NCBI GenBank assembly: GCA_951406725.2
Contig: OX597816.1
Coordinates: forward strand, 177,940,001 to 178,004,000
Source: Octopus vulgaris
Lineage: Eukaryota
DNA: 64,000 nucleotides
Reading direction: 5' to 3'
Part shown: positions 8,401 to 42,560 of the stretch, in pieces
How positions within the stretch are numbered: position 1 is the stretch's first letter
Layout of the letters: each line of letters starts with the position of its first letter
Translations under genes and position numbers: made by a program
The notes under the pieces: model-generated
What the model saw: the letters and a program-made list of their open reading frames with translations, nothing else
What the model was told of the DNA's origin: nothing
Database searches by the model: none

Positions 8401-9402
8401 AATGCCCGGATAGCCACCCTTGCAAGCTATACAGATAATACTAAAGTCTCGCAGAAAATACAGAACCCCGGCGATGTTGCACACCTGCAGCAGGAGTTGG
8501 ACTCAATTTACAGATGGGCTGAGGATAAGAATATGTAGTTTAATGCTGAAAAATTCCAGGCCCTGCGCTACCAGCATCCAAAACTGAATATTAAACTTAC
8601 AGGATACACCGGTCCACAGGGAATTTCAATCCCAGAGCCTAAGACTGTGAGGGACCTGGGTATCGACATGAGTGATGATACCTCTTTCCAAGTGCACATT
8701 ACCAGGATGGCGACAAAGTGCAGACGACTGGCAGGATGGATCCTAAGAACATTCAGAACCAGAGATAAGGAAACCATGATGGTCCTCTGACGGACATTCG
8801 TCCTCAGCCGCTTGGATTACTGCTCACAGCTGTGGTCACCCACCAGTGTGAAATTAATAGCGGACCTTGAAGCAATGCAGAGAAGATTCACAAAGAAGAT
8901 CGTCTCTTTGCAACAGCTCAGCTACTGAGAAAGGTTGAAACAGCTAAGTCTCTACACCCTGGACAGAAGACGGGAGAGGTATGCAGTAATATATATCTGG
9001 AAGATCCTGGAAGGAATTGTGCCAAATGTTGGCATTGAAAGGTACACTAATGCCAGAAAGGGACGACACTGAAAAGTGCCATAGATCCCAGCAATGCCAT
9101 TGTGCTCCAGGACCAGTCTCTGCAACAGCCTGGGTTTCAAGGGCCCGCAGCTTTTTAATATTCTCCCAAAGAGTCTGAGGAACTTGCACAAAGTAGATGT
9201 AGGAGTTTTCAAATCAAAACTGGACCTCTTTTTGTTGAGAGTTCCAGATAAATCTACCTCACTGCAAGAGGTGCAAATGAGGGTAGCTATATCAAACTCC
9301 ATGATTCACCAAGTGCCACATATTAGAGGAGGCTATTAGTGCCACATATGTAGCAAAACGGCGGTGCATCAGCATGGCCACAGCTCTGAGCTGAAACTAG
9401 AG
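5479..9402 (+). mobile_element. CR1-group non-LTR retrotransposon (ORF1 plus APE-EN/RT ORF2), near full length but frameshifted
   Basis: EN motifs LLNIGGL, ETHL, GGVVVYI, IGDFNFP, LDLCF, SDH. RT motifs AGPDG, YRPISLTS, QHGFR, DFEKAFDKVDH, GVPQG, degenerate YxDD (YTDN). C-terminal LDYCSQLWSP. 3' end CAGCATGGCCACAGCTCTGAGCTGAAAC. Confidence 0.9.
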
Positions 9403-9426
9403 AATATACATACATATATATATATA

Positions 9427-9569
9427 TACGACGGGCTTCTTTCAGTTTCCGTTTGCCAAATCCACTCACAAGGCTTTGGTCGGCCCGAGGCTATAGTAGA
9501 AGGCACTTGCCTAAGGTGCCACGCAGTGGCAATGAACCCGGAACAATATGGTTGGTAAGCAAGCTACTT
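9427..9569 (-). mobile_element. SINE family A, body portion left of the Tx1 array
   Basis: Matches family A from CGACGGGCTTCTTTCAG to GGTAAGCAAGCTACTT, then stops abruptly. Confidence 0.9.
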
Positions 9570-12105
9570 TATTTCATAAATATTTGCCATGAAGGCATTA
9601 CAAAGAGGGGACAAACAAGAAGAGACAAACAAAAGCTGTAGCGATTAAATATTTACAATTTAAAAATACAATAATTTAATGAAAATGTTTATAATTTTTG
9701 ACTTAAGCGTTGCTCATTACAAATGAAATTTGTAATGGCTTCTCTGAAGGATAGGCATCCGACCACCAGGGTAGACCCCTTGCTTTTTCTTTCCTGTTTT
9801 TGGCTTCCACTTACCTGGTGCCAAACACTTCCAGCTTCCTCGCCACAGGCTTCCATCTTCGCATGAATCTGTCTCTTGACAGGTACCTTTTCTACAGTTA
9901 ACCAACCCCTGGCCGGATACAAAGGTACCCGACACTATGCCTCTCACACGCGTCTTCCATACTGTTTCTTTCAGTATGGCTACTACGCAGAAAAGCAAGC
10001 CTTCGGACTTAACCTCCACTAACCGGCTATAGAAATCTGCGGTGGAACTCCTATTGCCGGCATTACCCGCCCGAGAGAGTAGCTGAAGTGCCTGGCAGCA
10101 CTCCAATTGCCAGTCCCCAAGCCTAGGTCTCTGCTTGATCCAATTACAAATGTCCGTTAAGGACGTGCGGCGACCACACCTGCTCTCCATCCAGGTAAAG
10201 CCAAGGGTGCCTCAACCTTAACGCGAATTTTTGCATCCTCAACCAAGACATCCCTAGCCCACCCTTTAGCGGTTTCTGGCAACAGACAGAGCGCTTTCCA
10301 ACAGGCTTTCCTCCTTTCCACAAAAAGCGGAAAAGGATTCTCTCCAACTTGTTCAGTCACAAATCGGGGCAAGGCACCACGGTCAGATGGTAGGTGATAA
10401 CCGATGCTATAAACATCTGCACCACCTCCGCCTTTCCTAGCAAAGATAACGCCCACCCGGACCAGGTCTGGGTTAGAGCAGTCACCCTGCCGGCCACCTC
10501 ACTCCAATTTTTCTCTATCTAGAAGTCCGGTCCTAGCCACACTCCGAGCAGCTTAACAGGAGCTTCCGTTCAACGCCCCACAGCGTTATTGTACGGCATT
10601 GGCTTGCCCCTCCAGGTGCCGAGCTGCAAACCAATTGACTTGTCCTTGTTAACCTTTGCTCCTGCCACCGCCTCGTAACTTTTGATAGCCTCTTCCACCA
10701 CTGGAAGCGGTCCTCATCCGCCACAATGATGGAGATGTCAACGCATACGCTGTAGCTCCTCTTCCATCCATAGATCATGCGGTGCGCCCCCTAGTGCCTC
10801 CAACTTCTGCAATAATGGCTCAACAGCCAGTACATACAAAACCGGGGACAGGGGACACCCGTGACGCACTGAGCGCTCGATCCTGAATGGCTTCGAAAGG
10901 AAACCATTCACTTTTACGACGGACTCGATGTCTCTATACAACGCAGCAATCCAACCGCGGAAGGTCGGGCCCAAGCCAGCCTTCTCGAGGACCGCCGCCA
11001 AGTACCGATGGTCGACCCTATCAAATGCCTTTGACTGGTCTAAATGTACCAGTACCCGCCATGTGCCAGAAAGCGTTCCCACCCTCTCTAAGGAGTAGCG
11101 TACAAGGTGGAGATTGTCGTGGATCGTCCTGCCCGGGATAGCGCACGTTTGCATTCCCCGACAAGTTTGTCCACGACCCGCGCCAACCTTTTCGCTAACA
11201 CCTTGGCCAAAATCTTTAACTCTGTGTTCAGCAGAGTTATGGGCCTGAAGTTACATATCTCGCCCACCTTGCTTGGGTCCTTCTTGATCAACGTCACCAC
11301 TTCCCGGCTCGCAGACTTAGGAATTCTCACATTCTGCTACCAATTGGCGTAGACGCTGGCCAGCAGGTGCCCGAACAAGTCTGGCATACTTTTGTAAAAT
11401 TCGTAAGGCAGACCATCGAGACCCAGTGACATCTCCCCGGGACATTCGCCCAGTACTTCGATCATCTCCTCGGCCGTGATTGACCCTTCGCAGCACTCAG
11501 CCTCTCATGCCGAGAGACGCGGGCCACCAGACAGGAAGTCCCTCAGGACCTCGCCATGATCCAGCGCCCCGCCACTCCCAAACAACTCCTGGTCGGATAC
11601 AAAGGTACCCGACACTATGCCTCTACTAAGTGCTTGTGAATCGTCTCACACATCTCGTCCCGTCCATCGACCCATTGTCATCCACGAGAGACCTAATTGT
11701 GGTATCATTGCCACGCTGGGTTTCTATCGTAAGGGCCCATCTGGCCCAATGCGCGCACTTTAGCCCAAACTCTGCACCCTCATGTTTGGCTTTGAGGTAA
11801 CGGTCCAAGGCCGTTTTCGCTGCCAAAATGTGAGATGCAGAGCCCAACATCAACGCCTCCTCTAGGTCCTTAACTAGTTGCTCTTCTGTTCTGGCCTTAT
11901 CTAGTCTTAGCTGACGGCTAAACCTAATAGACTCAAAACGAATGGCTCCCTTGAGGGCGAATCACTATCGGTTATTAATCACCGCACCGGTTAACGCCCT
12001 CTGTACTAATTCCTCAATCCGGCTACAGTATGCCTCGCAAGTCAAAATAGACTTATTCAGCTTCCAGTAGCCGGATCCTCTCTTAACTGTACTATCTATG
12101 TCCAG

Positions 12106-12783
12106 TCAACACTTAACCATTCTATGGTCAGTGTAAGCTACTTGGACATGCTGTGGACAGCTAAAACTAGACTTATCTCCAGTTCTTATCACTATCCTAT
12201 CTAAATAGGACTTGAACCTTCCGTCGCCACTCATCCAGGTCCACTCTGGGACGTTCGGATGGTCAAGTCTGTAACGATCAGCCAGCTGAAAACGCTTGAG
12301 CAGATTTATGAGACGTGAGTTTACTTTCCTATAGATCGAGCCAACGCTATCGATGCACGCATCAACAATAGCATTATAGTCTCCTAACACCACTAATGTC
12401 TTTGACGTCCCGAGAAAGTTCTCTAGGCGCCGATAAAAATCAGTTTGAAATCCTCTAGCACAAGGTGCGTAGATCCCGATCAACCTGAAGGCCTTACTGC
12501 TGTATGTCACATCAAGGACAACCAGCCCACCTTCTGGGTCTACATAGACTGTATTTGTCTGCAGAGCCAAGCCTTTTCGAACCAGTACTACTACACCCCC
12601 TAGCCCTCCAGTCGAGCTAGGCGACATGATTTCCTCATAGTCATTCAGGAGGGGCGAGAGGGCTTGTAGACTGTCCAGCTTGGTCTCTGTAGCAACCATC
12701 ACATGCATATCGTGAAAACAAGCTTGCTTCCACTTCAAGCTCAGACCACGCACATTCAAACACCCAAGGTTAAGTGCAGTCAT
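12106..12783 (-). pseudogene. APE-type endonuclease domain of Tx1 unit A ORF2
   Basis: 225-aa open frame with the APE motifs listed above. Its ATG lies 26 nt after the ORF1 stop at 12809. Confidence 0.88.
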
Positions 12784-13878
12784 TTAAAACAAAAGCAAAG
12801 CAAGGGTTCTACTTACTCTTTGACTTTTCTTTAATTGGTGATGCTGGGGCTGACCTCACCACACGTGAGGCAGTCCTTTCCTCCTGCTCCTTCAAATACC
12901 GTGGAAGGTCCGGGATGTTCGTGATGGCTCTCGGATGCCTACCCTTCATTTCATTATACAGTTTTTCTGGTATCCAGGCACATCTCTCTTCCGTGCCTTC
13001 AGACTGCTGCAACAGCTCCACGGTGTGATGTTTCTTTAATGTGTCCATGATTTATTTATCCCTGGTATCAAATTTTACCAGGGTTTTCCGTCTTTGTTCT
13101 GTTTTATTTTCTCTTCTGAGACAGTGGAGCGGGATCTTTTTTTTTTTCTGTGGTGTGCTGTTTTTCTTCTTTTTTCTTTGTGGGGGATATGATTAGGGAA
13201 GGTGCACGTGTTCTCTTTTTCTGGGTGTCTTGAACTCCCCTTCGGTCACCTCCATGGTGTCTTCCAGAGGAGTTGTTACTTCAGAGGGGGTGGGTGCATT
13301 TGTTTCGGTCGGCACCAGTGTGTGCATGGCCTGGGATTTTTGGGTGTTTTATTTGGGAGTGGGTGCCACAGATGGTGGGGTGGGAGTATTTGTTTCTGTA
13401 GGGGTTAATTTGTGTGCGGGTTTGGGGTCTTTTTCTGTAGTTGGAGGGCCTGATGTCTGCGCACTTATTATTTTTTTCCATATTTCACAGTCTACGCAAA
13501 TGTTGCCTTTTTGCCACATTCGAAACACGTGGGTTTTTTGCCCTCTACTCGAACCTTGAGGGCAATATCTTCCCCCAAGAGCATTCTTTCTGGCAGCATT
13601 TCGATGTCTTCTTGTGTTCCCCGAATAATCGCAGTGATGCTCTGCCCTTGCCAATTTTGTGGGGCAGTGCATGTGATTTGGAGGAAGGTGATTTTGTCCG
13701 TTCTGTTATACAACAGGGCGGCTATCACCTCCCTTGCCTCAATTTCTGGTGGTACTTCATTTATTCTGACGCGTGCTGTTTTCCTTCCCGTGTATGCTGG
13801 GAGCAGCATCATCTCCTTCGTTTTCAGAGGACTCACTGAGTGCTCTTGGGCTTTTTCAGTCATCTCAAATCTGGCCTC

Positions 13879-14318
13879 GGATCTTTTCGGTTTGAACGGC
13901 AGTTTTTAACACAATTTCTCGGTAACTAAAAAATTTTAAACTTCGTATACTGGTAGAATGTGTTTATAAAACATCTTTTTCTCTTGGCTTTATTGAGAAA
14001 ATTTTATAGTTTATAAGCTATTTGCTGTTTTTTTTCTTCAATTTCTGAAATTTCAACCAATCGATGACGTTAAAAAACATTCTGTGCCGTATGAATATGT
14101 CCCTCATTTAAGAAACAGATTAGGTTTATTTACATTTGTGAAGAAAAAAAGATACCCTTCCCCCCACCCCTAACCCTAACCCTAGCCCTAACTAACCCTA
14201 ACTAACCCTAAGCCTAAAACAGATTGAAATGCAATAGATCGATACTAGGGTCATAATTATGGGTGACAATTTCATATGACACCGCTAGAAAAAACTGCCG
14301 TTCAAACCGAAAAGATCC
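13879..14318. mobile_element. Non-autonomous DNA transposon (MITE) inserted in unit A ORF1
   Basis: ~29-bp TIRs GGATCTTTTCGGTTTGAACGGCAGTTTTT. 8-bp TSD CTGGCCTC (13871-13878) and CTGGCTTC (14319-14326). Internal (CCCTAA)n-like tract at ~14168-14215. Confidence 0.88.
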
Positions 14319-15317
14319 CTGGCTTCTATTGTTCCGTATGCTCGGCCCCTCGCTATGTATTTTATATATTTCTATATGGGGGCCAGGCATTTTTCTGTTT
14401 CGCACTTTTCGAAGTGCTTGAATTTTTTCGATGAAAGACAGTACATTAAGTAAACGAATGTCCTTTTCTTCATATTTTCAATACTAAGGGAGGGTGAGAT
14501 CTTTATATTCCACCCTCCTCTTTCATTCTCTCAAAAAGCTCGGAGAGCTTCTCCGTTTCTATTACAACATTTTTACACTAAACAGCGGCTACTGCCGCGA
14601 ACATTTTTGCTGGCTCATGCAGCTGGTTTGTTTCTTGAATTATTTCGACCGACATATATCGTTCGAAATAAATTATACACAATTTAATCCCATAAAATGG
14701 GAAACCTGTAATTTTTTACTTTTATCTTCTCTCAACGAGGACAACAGTTCCAATCCCACCCCTGTTGGGGGGACGAGACGTAGCAACAAAGCCTACAACG
14801 TTCGAATTTTTTTTCACACAATAATAAAAATACAGAATCAAAAAAAAAACGGGAAACCTATAATATTTTTTCCCCCTCACATCGAGGACAACAGTTCAAA
14901 TCTCGCCCACGCTAGGGGTGGATGCCACAATAGAGCCTACAACGGCTGAAATTTAATTTTTCACGCAATAATAAATTGCTTATCCCAAAAAACGGAAAAC
15001 CTATAATATGTTTTCCTCTTAATGAGGATAACAGTTCAAATCCCACCCCCGATGGGGGGGGGGGGGGCAATAAAGCCTACAACAGCTTTAATAAGTTCAA
15101 TATTAATAATATTAATAATTTCAATATTTGAACAATTACTTTCTCCCGTCACCGGGGAAAAGCACAAATATTTTCAAAGTTCAACAATGTTCAACAGTTC
15201 AAAAATATTCAACAATAAACAACAATTCCAATAGAAAAATTATTCAACGCTCAACAAAACGTTTGACTCACCGCCAAAAAACACGTCTATCCACGACAGA
15301 GGTAAGCGAGCTACTTT

Positions 15318-18300
15318 ACAAACATATAGGTGAAGCAGCTTAAAACGTTTTAAAAATTAATATGATGGGTACAAATTTCAATGAAAGTTTACAAATTTAA
15401 TGTTACATAGTAGGGCAAGGAACTCATCCATCTGGGTAGAACCTTTACTTCTTGATCTGGCCACGCATACTTGGTGCCAAACATACCCAGCTTACAAGTT
15501 ACAGGCTTCCATCTTTTCACAAACATATCTTGTGACAGACACCTCTTCTCCAGCCTGATCTTACTACCGAGATGGTAACTAAAAAAGTTAACCAACCCCT
15601 GGCCGGATATAAAGGTACCTGTCACTATACCTTTCGGACGCATCTTCCATACTGTTTCTTTCAGTATGGCAACTACGCAGGAAAATCAAGCCTTTCTTTC
15701 CCCGCTGAGGAAAGCAGGTGGCATAATCTCGACGATAGACTCTGCTAATAGCTGTACTCTTCCACTCACTGACAACAGTTGTTCGGCAAAAGCAATCAGT
15801 CCCGATAACTCCGGGCACTCCACGAATGCGTGCAAGACGATTTCCCTATACCGCACACATCGCGGACATGTCGGCGAGACGGCACTTCCGTGCCTTGACA
15901 GCTTGTCGCGAACAGGTAACGCCGCACGGAAACACTGCCAGGCCAGGGATTTCTGGTAATTAACGTTCTCGGAACAGGTTGACCAACCGATTTTCATCGT
16001 AGCCCAGGGTCTCCCCCAAGACGTCTTCTGATATAAATTTCACTAACCGGCTATAGAAATCCGCGGTAGAACTCCTGTTTAGGTCTCCGCTTGATCCATG
16101 CACCGGTGTCCGTGAAGGATGTTAACTGGGGAAGGTAGAACCGAACGTGCGGTGACCACACCTGCTCTCCATCCAGGTAAAACTAGAGGTGCCTCAACCT
16201 TAATGCGAGTTTTCGCATCTTCAGCCAAGGCATCCCTAGCCCACCCTTTAGCGGTTTCTGGCAACTGACAGAGCGCTTTCCAACTGGCTTTCCTCCTTTC
16301 CACAAAAAGCGGAAAAGGATTCTCTCCAATTTGTTCAGCTACAAATCGGCGCAAGGCACCACAGTCAGACGGTAGGTGATTACTGATGCTATGAACATCT
16401 GCACCACCTCCATCTTCCCTAGCAGGGATAACGTCCGTCCAGCCCAGGTCTGGGTTAGAGCAGTCACCCTGCCGGCCACCTCATTCCAATGTTTCTCTAT
16501 CTGGAGGTCTGGACCAATCCAGACTCCGAGCAGCTTAACAGGACCTTATGTCCAACGCGACGTTATTGGACGGCATCGGCTTGCCCCTCCAGGTGCCGGG
16601 TTGCAAACCGACCGACTTGTCCTTGTGAGCCTTTGCTCCTGCCACCGCCTCGTAACTCTTGATGGCCTCTTCCACCACTGAAAGCTGGCCTTCATCTGCC
16701 ACGATGATGGAGATGTCAACGCGTACGCCGTAGCTCCTCTTACATACAGAAGCGGGGACAGGGGACACCCCTGGCGAACTGAACGCTCGATCCTGAACGG
16801 CTTCGAAAAGAGCCCGTTCACGTTGACAACAGACTCGATCCAACCGCGTAAGGTCGGGCCCAGACCATCCTCCCCGAGGACCGCCGCCAAGTACCGATGG
16901 TCGACCCTACCAAATGCTTTAGACTGGTCTAAATGCACCAGTGCACAATTTTGCGCCTCCCCGACAAGTTTGTCTATGACCCGCGCCAACCTTTTTGCCA
17001 ACACCTTGGCCAAAATCTTTAACTCTGTGTTTAACAGAGTTATGGGCCTAAAGTTACCTATCCCGTCCCCCTTGCGCGTTAATTCTTTATGTTGAATATA
17101 AAGTTTTGTCATCTGACGTGTCACAATAGCTTCGTTGGTGTATCGTTCCGTAGTGTCGTCTTCGACAAGCTTTTCCTCTTTTTCTTCCGGGGCCGTTGGG
17201 CGGGATTTATTTTTTATTGTTTTTTGTGTATTGTTTTGGTTTTTACTCTCTCGGGCGGTGATGTGGATGGGGAAGGTTTTCGTTTTCGAGGTGTTGCAAA
17301 TCCACCCTCTGATACCTCCATGGTATCGTCTGAGAGGTCAACGTCTGTGGGGGCAACACTTTTTGGAGCAGTCGGTGCCACAGCTTACAAGGGGATGGGT
17401 GTTTTTATATTTGTAGGGGCTTGTGCGTGCAGGGGCTGGGTCTTTTTTGTCGTTTGTTTCGGGGCTAGCACCACAACAGGGGGACTGGGAATTTTTTGTC
17501 TGTGGGGATTGGTGTGTTTGCGGGGGTGGTTTTGTTTTGTTATTTGAGTGGCCTGGTGTTTGCGACAACTTTTTTTTTGTTCACAGTCCGCTCGATTGTG
17601 GCCCTTTTTTCCGCATTGGTAACAGGTGGGTTTACGGCCTTCCACCTGTACCCTAAGGGACACATTTTCCCCAAAAGGCACTCTCTCTGGTAGGACCTGA
17701 AGGTCCTCCTGTGTCCCCTGAATCAGGACCGTAATGCTTCGCCCGAGTCAATTCTGGGGGTTGGAGCATGTTATTTGTAAGATTTTTATTTGGTCCGCCA
17801 TATCAAACAACAGGGAGGCCAGCATTTCTCTTGGGCCTATTCAAGCGGTACTTCATTTATTCTTACACTAGATGTTCTTTTCCCCATATACATGAGTAGA
17901 ATTACCACCTCATTTGACTTTAGGGAACACGCGGCGTGCCCACGGGCCACCTCTTCGTCTGCGAAGCGAACCTCGACTGAGCCATATATCCTTCCCATTG
18001 TAATGTACATTATGTCCCTCCGTGTCGGGGACAGGCATTTCTCTATTTTCACTTCTTCGAAGTGTTTAAACCTTCTGTCTTTTGGGCTGAAGGTTTTGAA
18101 CACTACGGTCCGCTTTTCAGTTTCCACCACAGTTGAAGAAGGTGATATTATCACATCACCTCCTTCTTTTTTCATACGTTTAAAATATCCCTGTAGCATA
18201 CCTACAGGCATATCAATGTTTTCGGTTGCCACTGCGGCAACCTCCGAAAACTTTTTTCCATTGTTGACATGACTGCCGACATCATCATTGCTCTTTATAA

Positions 18301-18750
18301 GAGCACACATTTCGTGTATAATTTCAACTGACATGGTTGAAATTAATAACACAAGTAATTAAATTGGTTTCCCACAAACTGGGAAACCTATAAAAATTTT
18401 TTCCTATCAAAGAGGATAGTAATTTTTTTTAATTATGTAATACAGTTCAAATCCCACCCCCATTAGGGGGAGGGCACAGAAAGTCTAAAAGACTGTTACA
18501 ATTCAAAAATGTTATTCACACACGAAGAAAAAAAGCCACAATTGCCAGAGTTCAGAATTTTTGAGAAAGTGTTGAATTATTAAATTATTCCCCGGAAAGA
18601 CCAGGGAATAAAACAGTCCAAAATCGTTCAAATGTAATTCCTTGTTTCAAAGGTAACAAATCCAAAAAGTAATTACAACAAAACAGCAACAATGAAACAA
18701 TAACAACAGCAAAAACTCTTACCACGAGGAAAGACATGTTAACTCTTGTA
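15318..18750 (-). mobile_element. Tx1/L1-clade unit B (ORF1 joined to a partial RT; EN region deleted)
   Basis: ORF1 pieces at 17385-18352 with CYQCGKKGHNRADC. RT pieces FRPITLLN, LDQSKAF, QGCPLSP. C-terminal CPRC..H..C finger (15686-15997). No EN motifs between ~17070 and 17130. Confidence 0.87.
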
Positions 18751-18767
18751 AGGTAAGCGAGCTACTT

Positions 18768-19676
18768 TATTTTATTAAAATTGCCACAAGGGCTGGACAC
18801 AGACAGTAATGGGATGAATGATAATGATACAAGGATGATAAGGGTGGGAGAAGAGAAAAGCGCCCGCCGACTTTCACTTCTCTGAAACATTTTTCCTTTT
18901 TCTTTTTAAATCACATAATGAGGCTATAAACCTCTTACACAGTTCAGTAAATCGACACACACGAGGCAATAATCCCCTTACTTTTTATATAAAAAAACAA
19001 AGTTTTTTTGAGGTAATACACCTCTTACAAAAATGTCCATCAATTCAACTCTTCTGTCCGACCAGGCTACTCGCTTCATTGAAGCACCTGGTCCGTTTCA
19101 AACTTGAACATTTCATCATATATCTGAAGGAGTCCGCCGGGAAGGAGTTCATTATCCTGCACAGATCGGTCTCCCACATGACCTCCGCAGCCACCTGCGA
19201 AGGCCACTCAGGGTCCTCCGTGCAGGACAGAAGCCCCTCCCATCGGCCCTTCCTTTCAATTTTGCCAATTACACTCTGCAATGTCCCTCCCTTTGTGAAA
19301 GAGGACCACAAATTCTTCCTCCAGCGGCACACCTGCCGAAGGAACATGGGGACACGCCGGCAGCGTGTCACAAACCGCCGGCAATGTCCTGTTTTTCTTT
19401 TTTCTTTTACCCTTGGACCGCGGGTAAAAGACAAGAGCGCCCGCCGACCCTCGCTTCTCTAAGACATTGTTCCTTTTTTTTTCAAAATTTCACAAAAATT
19501 TCAAATTTTCTTTTTCAATACAATATAATGTTCAATAAGTCTATGTTACCCGGCCGACCAGCGCTCTTGCCTCAACGAGGCAATCATCGCTGGTCAGGTC
19601 GTGGTCTAGAGGTATAATTTGAAATGGGTCCATCGGGAAGGAATGCTGCCAAAAAACACGTCCGAACACGTCAGAG
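18768..19676 (-). mobile_element. Short non-autonomous Tx1-related unit C
   Basis: Shares the 3' end (TTGCCACA-GGG.., GCGCCCGCCGAC) and the 19120-19250 segment with unit D. Bounded by the junction motif on both sides. Internally duplicated. Confidence 0.75.
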
Positions 19677-19690
19677 GTTAGCGAGCTACT

Positions 19691-21727
19691 TTATTTAATT
19701 TAATTTGCCACAGGGGCAGTACACAGATAGTAGCTACGGTCTGGACATAGACATTAATGAATGATGGTAATGGAATGAAGATGGTGATGGGAGAAGACGA
19801 AAGCGCCCGCCGACTTCCGCTTCTCTAAGACATTGTTCTTTTTTCAATAATTTCACAAAATTTCCAAAATTTCACAAAAATTCCAAATTTTACAAATTAC
19901 AAATTACAAATTCAAAAATTTTTCCAGAGGCAATAAACCTCTATCTCAATATAATACAAAAACAGGTTCACGTTACCCGGCTGATGAACGTTCTTGCTTT
20001 ATTGACGCAATCGTTCTTCGTCAGGCCCCCGCATACAGGTATCAATTGAAAGAGGTCCTCCGGGAAAGAATTCTCGATCCTGCACAGATCTTTATCCAAT
20101 AGGACCTCCGCAGCCAACTGCGAAGGCCACTCGGGATCCTCCATGCAGGACCGAAGACCCTCCCATTAGTTTCTCTTCCTCATTTTACCTATTTCATTTT
20201 CTAATATTCCTCCTTTGTAGAAGAGGATTACATAATATTTCTCCGGCCCCTCAACCGCCGAAGGAGACATGGGAGACGCCGTCTGCGTGTTACAATCCGC
20301 TGGCGGCGTTCCGTTTCTCTTCTTTCTTTTTTTCTTTTTACCGTGGGCCACGGGAGGTTGAGGTTCCGGTGTTGCACACGCCGGGTCCACTCTTTCTCCC
20401 GTAGCTTCCGGGTCTTTTAGTGGGTCACAATTGTTCCCCACTTTTCGTTTTCTCGTTGAGGAAGTCACCGCTTCCTCGTTCTGTTTCTCTCCCTCCATTT
20501 GGGGGGCAGGGAGAGGTTCCGATATCAACTTCTCCAGGATCCTACTTTGGTTCCTGGGGCAGTTCTTCTTAATGTGGCCGGTCTCCAGACACAGGTGACA
20601 CTTGGGGGGGGGGCGTCCCTCAAGCATCACCGGATACCTGGACCCGGCCATCCTCAAAAAGTCCGGAAAAACCAGACTTTTGGCTGACTGGGTCCATAGG
20701 GTCAAAACAGCTGTTGACCCCTCCCAATCAGCCGCAGGCTGTACTTTTACGTTCAGTAGCTTGGAACTGCTACCATCCAAGCCCCGGCGGATAGAGTCCT
20801 CTATCCACTCGGGCTCAACGCCTGGTGGTAAGCCGCAGATCCAAGCTCTCAAAAATTTTGTCCCTTGTAATTAGGGAGGAACAATATGTGTTTGCCCTCA
20901 ATGGGCTGGCTTGCAAATTCGCAAGCTGCTTTAGGGGAGTCAAATAGCAACCAAACCGTTGCGTATCTAACTCCCCGTGCGATATATTTAACGGCTGGCA
21001 TGTAGTCTGCCAGCTCGTTAACAATAGTAGCCTTTGGAAAGACTGCTATGGTGTCGAGCGACTTCGAGTATGTCCTCAGCACCACGGTCTTTTCCTCGAG
21101 CTCATTGAAATATTTTTTGGGAGGTGTCAATTCCCACACAGTGAATTTCTTTGCCATAACGTAAGGTTCAAAAACAGTTCAAAATGTGATAAAATAAGAC
21201 ACAGAAAGGAGAATGAAAAATACAACAGAGGGGAAGAAATGAAATTAGAAATAGCAGTTCAAAAACAGTTCTTTTTTTAAAAAAATAAATGATAGACGGA
21301 GAAAGAGAGTTCAAATCCAGGCAAAGGAATTAATTTTTTCTTTTTTTTTTTTTCACTTTTTTCGGCCAAAACATTGTATTCTAGGCCAAATGTACAACTG
21401 GTAAAACTTCTTGATAAAATAATCCTTGGCACTCCCTGGTAATTCCCGTGGATAACACAAAGACAATTTCAAAAACAATTTTTGCAGAGGAACTACGCCT
21501 CTTCAAAAACACAATTCTCACTGCAAAGTGAGTCTTTACACTCGACAACAGGCAGGAAAAAATGTCTGGAGCAAAGTGTAATCTATTACTTGCTAAAAAT
21601 TATTAAATGCAAAGCAATAAACTTCACTAGGCCCCTAAATAAAATTCAACAAATGCCTACCTGTAGTCGAGTCTCAAAAATTCAACATTTCACGTCGAAG
21701 CACGTGACAACCGGCAGCTGCCAAAAA
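19691..21727 (-). mobile_element. ORF1-only Tx1-related unit D (HAL1-like)
   Basis: ORF1 in two frames (20849-21157 and 20166-20852) with CHLCLETGHIKKNC. Its N-terminus resembles unit A/B ORF1 (EKTVVLRTYS; LFLPNYKG). No EN or RT before the 3' end. Confidence 0.8.
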
Positions 21728-21750
21728 ACCACACAGCCACTCCTGTACCT
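21728..21750 (-). mobile_element. SINE family A 5' head, continuation of the copy broken at 9569
   Basis: ACCACACAGCCACTCCTGTACCT is the sequence that follows GCTACTT in intact copies (compare 31852-31881). Confidence 0.85.
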
Positions 21751-21779
21751 GACTAGGCGGATGAATTCTGAGAACCTTC

Positions 21780-22368
21780 CAAACAATGGACCAGGATACT
21801 ATCTATGCTGGTTCTATGGAGCACATTTATACTGAACTCTCTGGACCACTCTGAATTATGGTCACCCTACAGTGTCAAATTAATCGCAAAACTTGAGGCA
21901 GTTCAGCTGCGTTACACCAGGAAGCTTATGTTAATAGCACAGCTGAGTTACTGTGAGAGAAGAAAGAGTGGTATAAGCATGGAATATCCTTGACGGGCTG
22001 GCTGACACCTCGGTTTGGAATCGAGAGCTACACCAGTCCCTGAACTGGACTTTCTGCCCGATTCCAACGGTCCCATTTGTCCCGTCTAATGTGAGGACCA
22101 TGAACTGTAAGAGCCAACAACTCTGTACTCCCTTGCCAATACATCTGAGTGATCTTCATGGAGTAGCAGTAGATGTTTTCAAGAAACAACTTAACCTCCT
22201 GCTACACAAGATCGGAGATATATCAAGATCTAAGCAGGAGACTCAAAAGAGGGCAGCAGTGTCGAACTCCCTCCTTCACCAAAAGCCAATTACATAAATC
22301 GGCCAAAGGGTGATTGCATTGGTGTTGCACCAGTATGGCCATGCCTTGGGCTGAAACATGTAACAGAA
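21780..22368 (+). mobile_element. Diverged CR1-group 3' fragment
   Basis: LDHSELWSP..KLEAVQLRYTRK and VDVFKKQLNLLL are homologous to 8800-9300. Ends in CAGTATGGCCATGCCTTGGGCTGAAAC. Confidence 0.8.
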
Positions 22369-42141: not shown

Positions 42142-42560
42142 ATGCGCAGGAGTGGCTGTGTGGTAAGTAGCTTGCTAGCCAACCACATGGTTGCGGGTTC
42201 AGTCCCACTGCGTGGCATCTTGGGCAAGTGTCTTCTGCTATAGCCCCGGGCCGACCAATGCCTTGTGAGTGGATTTGGTAGACGGAAACTGAAAGAAGCC
42301 TGTCGTATATATGTATATATATATATATGTGTGTGTGTGTGTTTGTGTGTCTGTGTTTGTCCCCCTAGCATTGCTTGACAACCGATGCTGGTGTGTCTAC
42401 GTCCCCGCCACTTAGCGGTTCGGCAAAAGAGACCGATAGAATAAGTACTGGGCTTACAAAGAATAAGTTCCGGGGTTGATCTGATCGACTAAAGGCGGTG
42501 CTCCAGCATGGCCGCAGTCAAATGACTGAAACAAGTAAATGAGTAAAAGAGTAAAAGAGA
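42142..42560 (+). mobile_element. SINE family A, full length
   Basis: Near-identical to the reverse complement of 2018-2428. Confidence 0.92.

What the first reader, a model, noticed from the sequence alone, without database searches (positions are those of the whole stretch)
15269..19692. Junction motif differs from the host SINE by the same base at all three junctions: serial TSDs or an element-carried target copy
Seen: the three internal junctions read GCGAGC while the flanking SINE reads GCAAGC (9559-9564), as do the other family A copies here. Two junctions are preceded by a conserved GCCAAAAAACACGTC..CACG.CAGA block. The outermost 5' junction (21721-21728) stops within GCCAAAAAAC and lacks the motif. 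Inference: either the motif is a ~15-bp TSD from an ancestral CpG-bearing SINE, or the elements encode a mimic of their own target at their 5' end, so each full-length insertion creates a landing site for the next. The second option would be a self-propagating array mechanism.
Basis: partly seen in the sequence, partly recalled or inferred. Interest (0 to 1): 0.75.

Follow-up and report, generated by a model that had tools for sequence, protein, structure and literature searches.

The report
LINEs carrying half their target site
A family of jumping genes that lands at one spot in a very common short repeat brings 6-7 letters of that spot at its own front end, so each full-length insertion rebuilds a 16-letter landing pad that likely both guides the joining step and lets further copies stack up.

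Summary
Four L1/Tx1-like elements sit head to tail in a SINE. This scan reported the SINE-targeting family before on other DNA. The junction anatomy is what is added here.

The 16-bp motif is a chimera. In a young family, 22 of 23 insertions whose target differed in positions 1-7 still start GGTTAG at the 5' junction, so these bases come with the element. Rare target variants at positions 9-10 sit on both sides, so that part is true TSD.

G occurs in 261 of 64,509 intact SINEs but in 13 of 32 full-length 5' junctions. It is not invariant, and 37 of 99 young junctions carry an extra base there. A CpG-bearing ancestral SINE is rejected. G is likely an untemplated nucleotide added once and then copied outward as TSD; inheritance through RNA is not excluded.

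Precedents exist in R2 (earwig) and R1. I found none for an L1/Tx1-type element in six searches. Verdict: new variant of a known kind.

The parts
9404..9569 (-). Host SINE, 3' remainder, ending in the target-side copy of the 16-mer
9554..9569 (+). Target-side 16-mer, A at position 8
9570..15300 (-). Element A: decayed autonomous L1/Tx1-like LINE (ORF1 remnant, APE endonuclease 12106-12783, RT 10738-11250)
   Evidence: PF03372 E 2e-9, PF00078 E 5e-12; 87% to nearest fetched relatives, 78% to family F
15301..15316 (+). Junction 1: GGTAAGC (A-family 5' end) + G + AGCTACTT
15317..18751 (-). Element B: internally deleted LINE (ORF1 with CCHC knuckle, RT 16546-17337, zf-RVT 15686-16039)
   Evidence: ends related to L139 and L152
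18752..18767 (+). Junction 2: GGTAAGC + G + AGCTACTT after a B-family 5' end
   Evidence: the same 5' end occurs with G in L139 and with A in L152
18768..19675 (-). Element C: 0.9-kb internally deleted relative of the ORF1-only elements
   Evidence: 72-85% matches to D and internal repeats
19676..19691 (+). Junction 3: GGTTAGC (C/D-family allele, T at position 4) + G + AGCTACTT
19692..21728 (-). Element D: 2-kb ORF1-only non-autonomous element, 5'-truncated by about 26 nt, no TSD
   Evidence: (weak CCHC hit); 88-92% to L124/L029
21729..21752 (-). Host SINE 5' end (A-box-like motif), displaced by 12.2 kb

Best explanation
The 16-bp junction motif is a chimera of 6-7 target-like bases that come with the element and 8-10 bases of true target duplication, and the differing base sits at the seam, where reverse transcriptase likely adds an untemplated A or G. 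Inferred mechanism: the RNA would start at the G of GCT(A/T)ACC. The bottom strand is nicked at a fixed base in the SINE head and the top strand up to about 16 nt away. The cDNA ends in GGT(A/T)AG(C) plus a purine, pairs in register with the far end of the overhang and primes second-strand joining. Later elements likely insert into the rebuilt 5' copy and duplicate its right half. One G made at element A's junction was therefore probably copied to junctions 2 and 3, while position 4 was rewritten by each newcomer's family allele.
For: Family F, 53 paired insertions: where the target differs from GGTTAGC, the 5' copy has the element base in 21 of 21 at position 4, 9 of 9 at position 1, 4 of 4 at position 2 and 6 of 7 at position 6. 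L309 has GGTTAGCA joined to the SINE head with no TSD. L316 is an off-SINE insertion that brings GGTAAGGA plus a 15-bp TSD of foreign sequence. True TSD on the right: shared rare variants at position 9 (L343), 10 (L225/L334), 14 (L298, between two 5' copies). Seam heterogeneity: 27 of 99 read GGTTAGC-A-AAGC, 9 read GGTTAG-A-CAAGC and 1 is another +1 form (hand count); A, G or T substitutions at position 7 appear. Junctions are seamless in 21 of 30 matched targets and 8 of 23 mismatched (Fisher p 0.014). G is scattered over the D tree (10 changes vs 12.3 shuffled, p 0.10) and the poorly resolved A tree. Neighbouring junctions share state in 29 arrays (hand labels, first pair only: G 5/5 vs 4/24, p 0.001; extra A 6/7 vs 1/22, p 1e-4). 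Of 50 non-SINE-side 3'-end motif hits, 47 keep a recognisable motif; the other three are two internal repeats and the off-target L316. Truncated copies have TSDs of 0-15 bp.
Against: No transcript 5' end was seen; the RNA start is inferred. G frequency differs by family (2 of 99 in F vs 14 of 36 in D), which also fits inheritance. A-family 5' copies carry T at position 14 in 7 of 27 vs 5 of 94 intact SINEs (p 0.005), discordant with the target in 3 of 3 checked. Two D-type copies on different contigs share GGTTGG.GAGTT. The TSD in L316 begins with AGCTA. These suggest some RNAs carry 11-14 nt. Three F pairs have A at position 10 in the target only. On direction: within F-era arrays the extra-A correlation is not significant (7/10 vs 1/6, p 0.12), and nearest-neighbour identity makes SINE-proximal F copies look younger (mostly 98-99.7%) than their outer neighbours (95-99%) (sampling uneven). 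L145 has G in the target and A in the 5' copy, so G is not always copied.
Confidence: 0.72

Rival explanations
1. The RNA carries most or all of the 16-mer, G is a heritable element allele, and heteroduplex repair at each insertion picks the element or the target base.
For: G in 9 of 46 5' copies whose target has A. Family-specific G rates. G in 4 of 7 rows of one D clade and 1 of 14 in its sister rows. Position-14 T excess in the A family. Shared GGTTGG.GAGTT variant. AGCTA overlap in L316.
Against: No significant clustering of G on trees. G occurs in many distant families although targets are 99.6% A, and an inherited G would be lost to target alleles. GGTTAG-A-CAAGC needs an untemplated base. 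Rare target variants at positions 9-10 are copied to both sides.
Confidence: 0.2
2. All junctions are plain 16-bp TSDs from an ancestral CpG-bearing SINE whose SINE-side copy later decayed.
For: Many singles have identical copies on both sides (21 of 30 F insertions with a matched target). A truncated copy can make a 15-bp TSD (L058).
Against: G is 0.40% in SINEs and at most 10 sites against 625 SINE-side junctions (patterns differ slightly). Neighbouring CpGs are 77-86% retained. 22 of 23 mismatched targets are overwritten on the 5' side.
Confidence: 0.02
3. The junctions were homogenised after insertion by gene conversion or by tandem duplication within the array.
For: One array holds three F copies about 5.45 kb apart with the same +A junction (C9:2.67 Mb).
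Against: The four window elements belong to different families with different 5' and 3' ends. Junction 3 keeps its own position-4 allele. Solo insertions show the same asymmetry.
Confidence: 0.06

Closest known systems
R2 elements whose RNA keeps 28S sequence at its 5' end; earwig R2 in particular (PMC3774820, passages read)
   Same: Target sequence on the RNA 5' end is proposed to anneal to the target and prime the second strand. All earwig junctions carry a 22-bp copy of downstream 28S with three substitutions.
   Different: R2 uses a restriction-like endonuclease, an rDNA co-transcript and an HDV-like ribozyme. Here the enzyme is APE-type, the carried piece is 6-7 nt, there is no Rfam ribozyme hit in the array, and the target is a polymorphic SINE.
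Drosophila R1: tandem arrays and melanogaster-type R1A (PMC2718515, section 11 read whole)
   Same: APE-type site-specific LINE. Arrays are separated by one 14-bp TSD and attributed to insertion into the 5' TSD. Untemplated bases occur at the 5' seam. R1A carries 28S sequence at its 5' end.
   Different: R1A carries upstream target sequence and makes a 9-bp deletion with few arrays. Here the carried bases are the far half of the duplicated site and rebuild a landing pad shared by many families.
Tx1-clade transposon-targeting LINEs: Tx1 in Tx1D, Tx1-Mar and SINEU-3 in Mariner-N4_AMi (PMC4494074, passages and section 15 read; supplements not read)
   Same: Specific insertion in another repeat. 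Tandem SINEU-3 copies sandwich a 16-bp TSD.
   Different: The targets are DNA transposons. An element-borne part of the TSD is not described in the passages I saw.

Membership tests
L1/Tx1 group non-LTR retrotransposon | ORF2 with N-terminal APE endonuclease, RT and C-terminal zinc motif | tested here: met
   Intact relative L141: 1133 aa with PF03372, PF00078, PF13966; remnants in A and B
L1/Tx1 group non-LTR retrotransposon | Separate ORF1 with CCHC knuckle | tested here: met
   467-aa ORF1, zf-CCHC 20.7 bits vs cut-off 20.8; weak hits in B and D
L1/Tx1 group non-LTR retrotransposon | RT closer to L1 than to R2 | tested here: met
   PDB: human L1 ORF2p E 8e-67 vs R2 E 6e-20
Tx1 clade proper | RT groups with Tx1L/Keno/Kibi/Koshi in a tree | not tested
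Best hit with a family name is 'Transposon TX1 uncharacterized 149 kDa protein' (coral), 32% identity, E 4e-87, which is only a lead
Tx1 clade proper | Sequence-specific insertion | tested here: met
   625 exact SINE/3'-end junctions at one base, control 0; one off-target among 161 3'-end motif hits in fetched loci (loci were chosen by junction patterns)
Plain TSD | 5' and 3' copies identical to the pre-insertion allele over the whole motif | tested here: not met
   22 of 23 mismatched targets overwritten in positions 1-7
R2-type carried target sequence | Target-like bases present on the RNA 5' end | not testable with these tools
   Only assembled contigs of guessed RNA runs were available; inferred from DNA junctions
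R2-type carried target sequence | 5' HDV-like ribozyme defines the RNA end | tested here: not met
   No relevant Rfam hit in 9300-22000; no shared fold in five 5' ends, one z -2.5 and four near 0. A novel ribozyme is not excluded

The most novel reading that the evidence does not exclude
A whole clade of L1/Tx1-type LINEs and their ORF1-only passengers keeps a heritable, family-specific copy of the target site at the RNA 5' end. It acts as a built-in splint for second-strand priming and rewrites any worn SINE site into a fresh consensus landing pad, so arrays propagate themselves independently of SINE decay.
Probability: 0.4. Interest if true: 0.7.

Novelty: new variant of a known kind. Interest (0 to 1): 0.5.

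Why it matters
How L1-type elements join their 5' end and prime the second strand is poorly understood (stated in the abstract start of PMC6895275, search listing only). Here many independent insertions into naturally polymorphic copies of one target act as a ready-made marker experiment: they show base by base what comes from the element, from the target and from the enzyme. A 7-nt match between RNA end and target goes with seamless junctions (70% vs 35%). That gives a direct design for an assay and bears on making retrotransposon-based insertion precise. The parts of the idea have precedents in R1 and R2, which limits the surprise.

Tried and rejected
CpG-decay model: rejected.

Apparent strict matching of T-allele families to T-allele SINEs was partly an artefact of searching for perfect 16-mers. 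The unbiased list still gives 63 T of 86 F 3' ends vs about 50 of the first 100 intact SINE rows (hand counts, includes internal junctions).

Cap-templated base: rejected, because a copied cap would put G on the sense strand and the variant is C there (reasoning from recalled mechanism).

Tree tests for inheritance of G, position-14 T, position-10 A and position-4 T: none significant. The D tree used 40 of 64 candidate rows; the A tree was unsettled.

Age ordering in arrays by nearest neighbour: confounded by sampling.

RNA: no RNA holder listed on record. Contigs of four guessed-RNA runs cover the F 5' end but cannot show a start.

ARAGORN found no tRNA gene in the window. Rfam and folding gave no ribozyme.

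Six short fetches (L338-L342, L344) missed the 3' junction, so those pairs stay unresolved, including the second G-bearing F copy. 3' ends were not recovered for about half of the 20 A-type loci (deleted or interrupted). One search undercounted pairs (47) through a faulty duplicate filter; (53) replaces it. Notes and miscounted as 14 G; the count is 13 (11 of 30 without this window, p 2e-19).
Full report
ANATOMY. Between 9570 and 21728 four elements lie head to tail on the minus strand inside one SINE, whose two parts are at 9404-9569 and from 21729. A (5.7 kb) has APE and RT remnants; B (3.4 kb) has ORF1, RT and zf-RVT; C (0.9 kb) and D (2.0 kb) are ORF1-only types. An intact relative (family F, L141) encodes a 467-aa ORF1 and a 1133-aa APE-RT-zf ORF2 closest to human L1 ORF2p among solved structures. 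The host is octopus-like: the SINE was recognised from recall, named homologues come from cephalopods, and earlier notes say the same. The motif is written here on the + strand, which is the cDNA sense, as positions 1-16: GGT(A/T)AGC(A/G)AGCTACTT.

OBSERVATION. Confirmed as written. Junction 3 also differs at position 4. The exact SINE/3'-end junction occurs 625 times in the genome, control 0, so this is a site-specific family. The scan had already reported it on other DNA; a word search and a sequence search of earlier notes for the junction question returned nothing.

THE G IS NOT FROM THE SINE. Intact SINE sites have G in 261 of 64,509. A looser pattern finds 10 SINE-side junctions with G. 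Full-length 5' junctions ending in CAGA have G in 13 of 32. In 46 paired non-F insertions the target has A in all 46 and the 5' copy has G in 9; in one of the nine the script skipped an inner element whose junction also has G. Three other CpGs in 143 flanking SINE bodies are kept in 90 of 105, 80 of 104 and 69 of 87 readable cases, so decay of an ancestral CpG cannot explain this.

THE LEFT HALF COMES WITH THE ELEMENT. For family F (median pairwise identity 98%) I listed 5' ends without regard to the motif: 106 matches, 100 shown. I fetched the first 61 listed except one chance match, plus C19:70687305, and paired 53 including two found earlier. Where the target differs from GGTTAGC, the 5' copy shows the element's base in 21 of 21 at position 4, 9 of 9 at position 1, 4 of 4 at position 2 and 6 of 7 at position 6. 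The A family carries GGTAAGC in the same way, with two GGTTAGC exceptions. L309 has the 7-mer plus A against the SINE head with no duplication. L316 carries it into non-SINE DNA beside a 15-bp TSD. At least ten distinct 5' end types show such a 7-mer.

THE RIGHT HALF IS TSD. Rare variants are shared by both copies at position 9 (L343) and 10 (L225/L334), and by neighbouring 5' copies at position 14 (L298) and once at position 6 (L226/L335). Truncated copies have duplications of 0, 0, 1, 1, 3, 7, 8 and 10 bp, 15 bp, and 12 and 4 bp. Six F pairs differ in positions 9-16 with none shared in that set, roughly what about 1% divergence per copy would give; four are at position 10, three of them target-only.

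THE SEAM. Variation concentrates at positions 7-9: 37 of 99 F junctions have one extra base, in two registers, and 2 of 99 have G (hand count). D-type junctions have G at position 8 in 14 of 36 and also show G at 7 and +A forms. Seamless junctions are commoner when the target matches the 7-mer: 21 of 30 vs 8 of 23, p 0.014. This fits a cDNA that ends at position 6 or 7, gains one or two untemplated purines and pairs in register with the target overhang. Untemplated bases at 5' junctions are documented for R1 and R2 (PMC2718515, PMC3774820). G does not cluster significantly on a 40-row D tree (p 0.10) or a weak 27-row A tree. Against this reading, G rates differ by family and some variants recur as far as positions 11-14. 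Some RNAs may therefore start further upstream. I put untemplated origin of G at about 60% and inheritance at about 35%.

ARRAY GROWTH. Neighbouring 5' copies share G or extra-A states far more than chance over 29 arrays (labels by hand). An F copy has the rare G exactly where its inner neighbour has G (L136). Internal junctions keep the motif (47 of 47 true ones), while truncated copies were recognised at outer positions (window D, L131, L321). All this points to insertion into the 5' copy, as proposed for R1. The extra-A signal is not significant within F-era arrays and the identity-based ages lean the other way, so I give it about 70%. For this window, A likely came first and gained G at its seam; B and C then copied the G as TSD; D arrived truncated without the 7-mer and closed that end.

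LITERATURE. Read: PMC2718515 (outline and section 11 whole), PMC3774820 (passages), PMC4494074 (passages and section 15), PMC4640811 (passages), PMC13282606 (passages). No supplements were read; the junction figures in the supplements of PMC4494074 could bear on novelty. Searches returned no report of an element-borne half-TSD in an L1/Tx1-type element or of this SINE-targeting family. The library lacks most subscription papers and Repbase.

VERDICT. New variant of a known kind. Interest 0.5.

Noticed in passing
intact SINE sites, e.g. matched rows; window 42165-42190: The target is an inverted repeat: TGGTAAG and CTTACCA flank a 7-nt loop, and the insertion point lies in one arm. The carried 7-mer is therefore also nearly complementary to the bases at the nick.
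   Followed up: no
window 15273-15300 and 19648-19675: A 30-nt block with ACACGTC repeats is shared by the 5' ends of the autonomous A family and the ORF1-only C/D elements; candidate internal promoter or packaging signal.
   Followed up: partly
G000:C7:13.45-13.48 Mb (L130, L105, L129): An array of at least 12 elements of several families over more than 20 kb, mostly with G junctions; neither end was reached.
   Followed up: partly
G000:C9:2.66-2.68 Mb (L308): Three family F copies in tandem at about 5.45-kb spacing with identical +A junctions; serial insertion or duplication.
   Followed up: no
L131:-:8057-8303: A different 230-bp SINE-like repeat is inserted at the same target base with a 10-bp duplication, so other passengers use the site.
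   Followed up: partly
A-family 5' junctions: T at position 14 in 7 of 27 copies, not matching the target where checked; unexplained.
   Followed up: partly
L129, L136, L230: The junction GGTGAGAAAGCTACTT recurs after three different 5' ends.
   Followed up: no
window 14167-14215 and 13879-13907/14290-14318: Inside element A: a short CCCTAA-type telomere-like run, and a perfect 29-bp inverted repeat pair that suggests a local inversion or insertion.
   Followed up: no
window 14687-15087: Three 71-73% identical subrepeats of about 150 bp in the 5' UTR of element A, like the monomers of some L1 promoters.
   Followed up: no
L141, L269, L293, L295: Several family F copies keep an ORF2-length open frame (1140-1150 codons stop to stop), so the family may be recently active.
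   Followed up: partly
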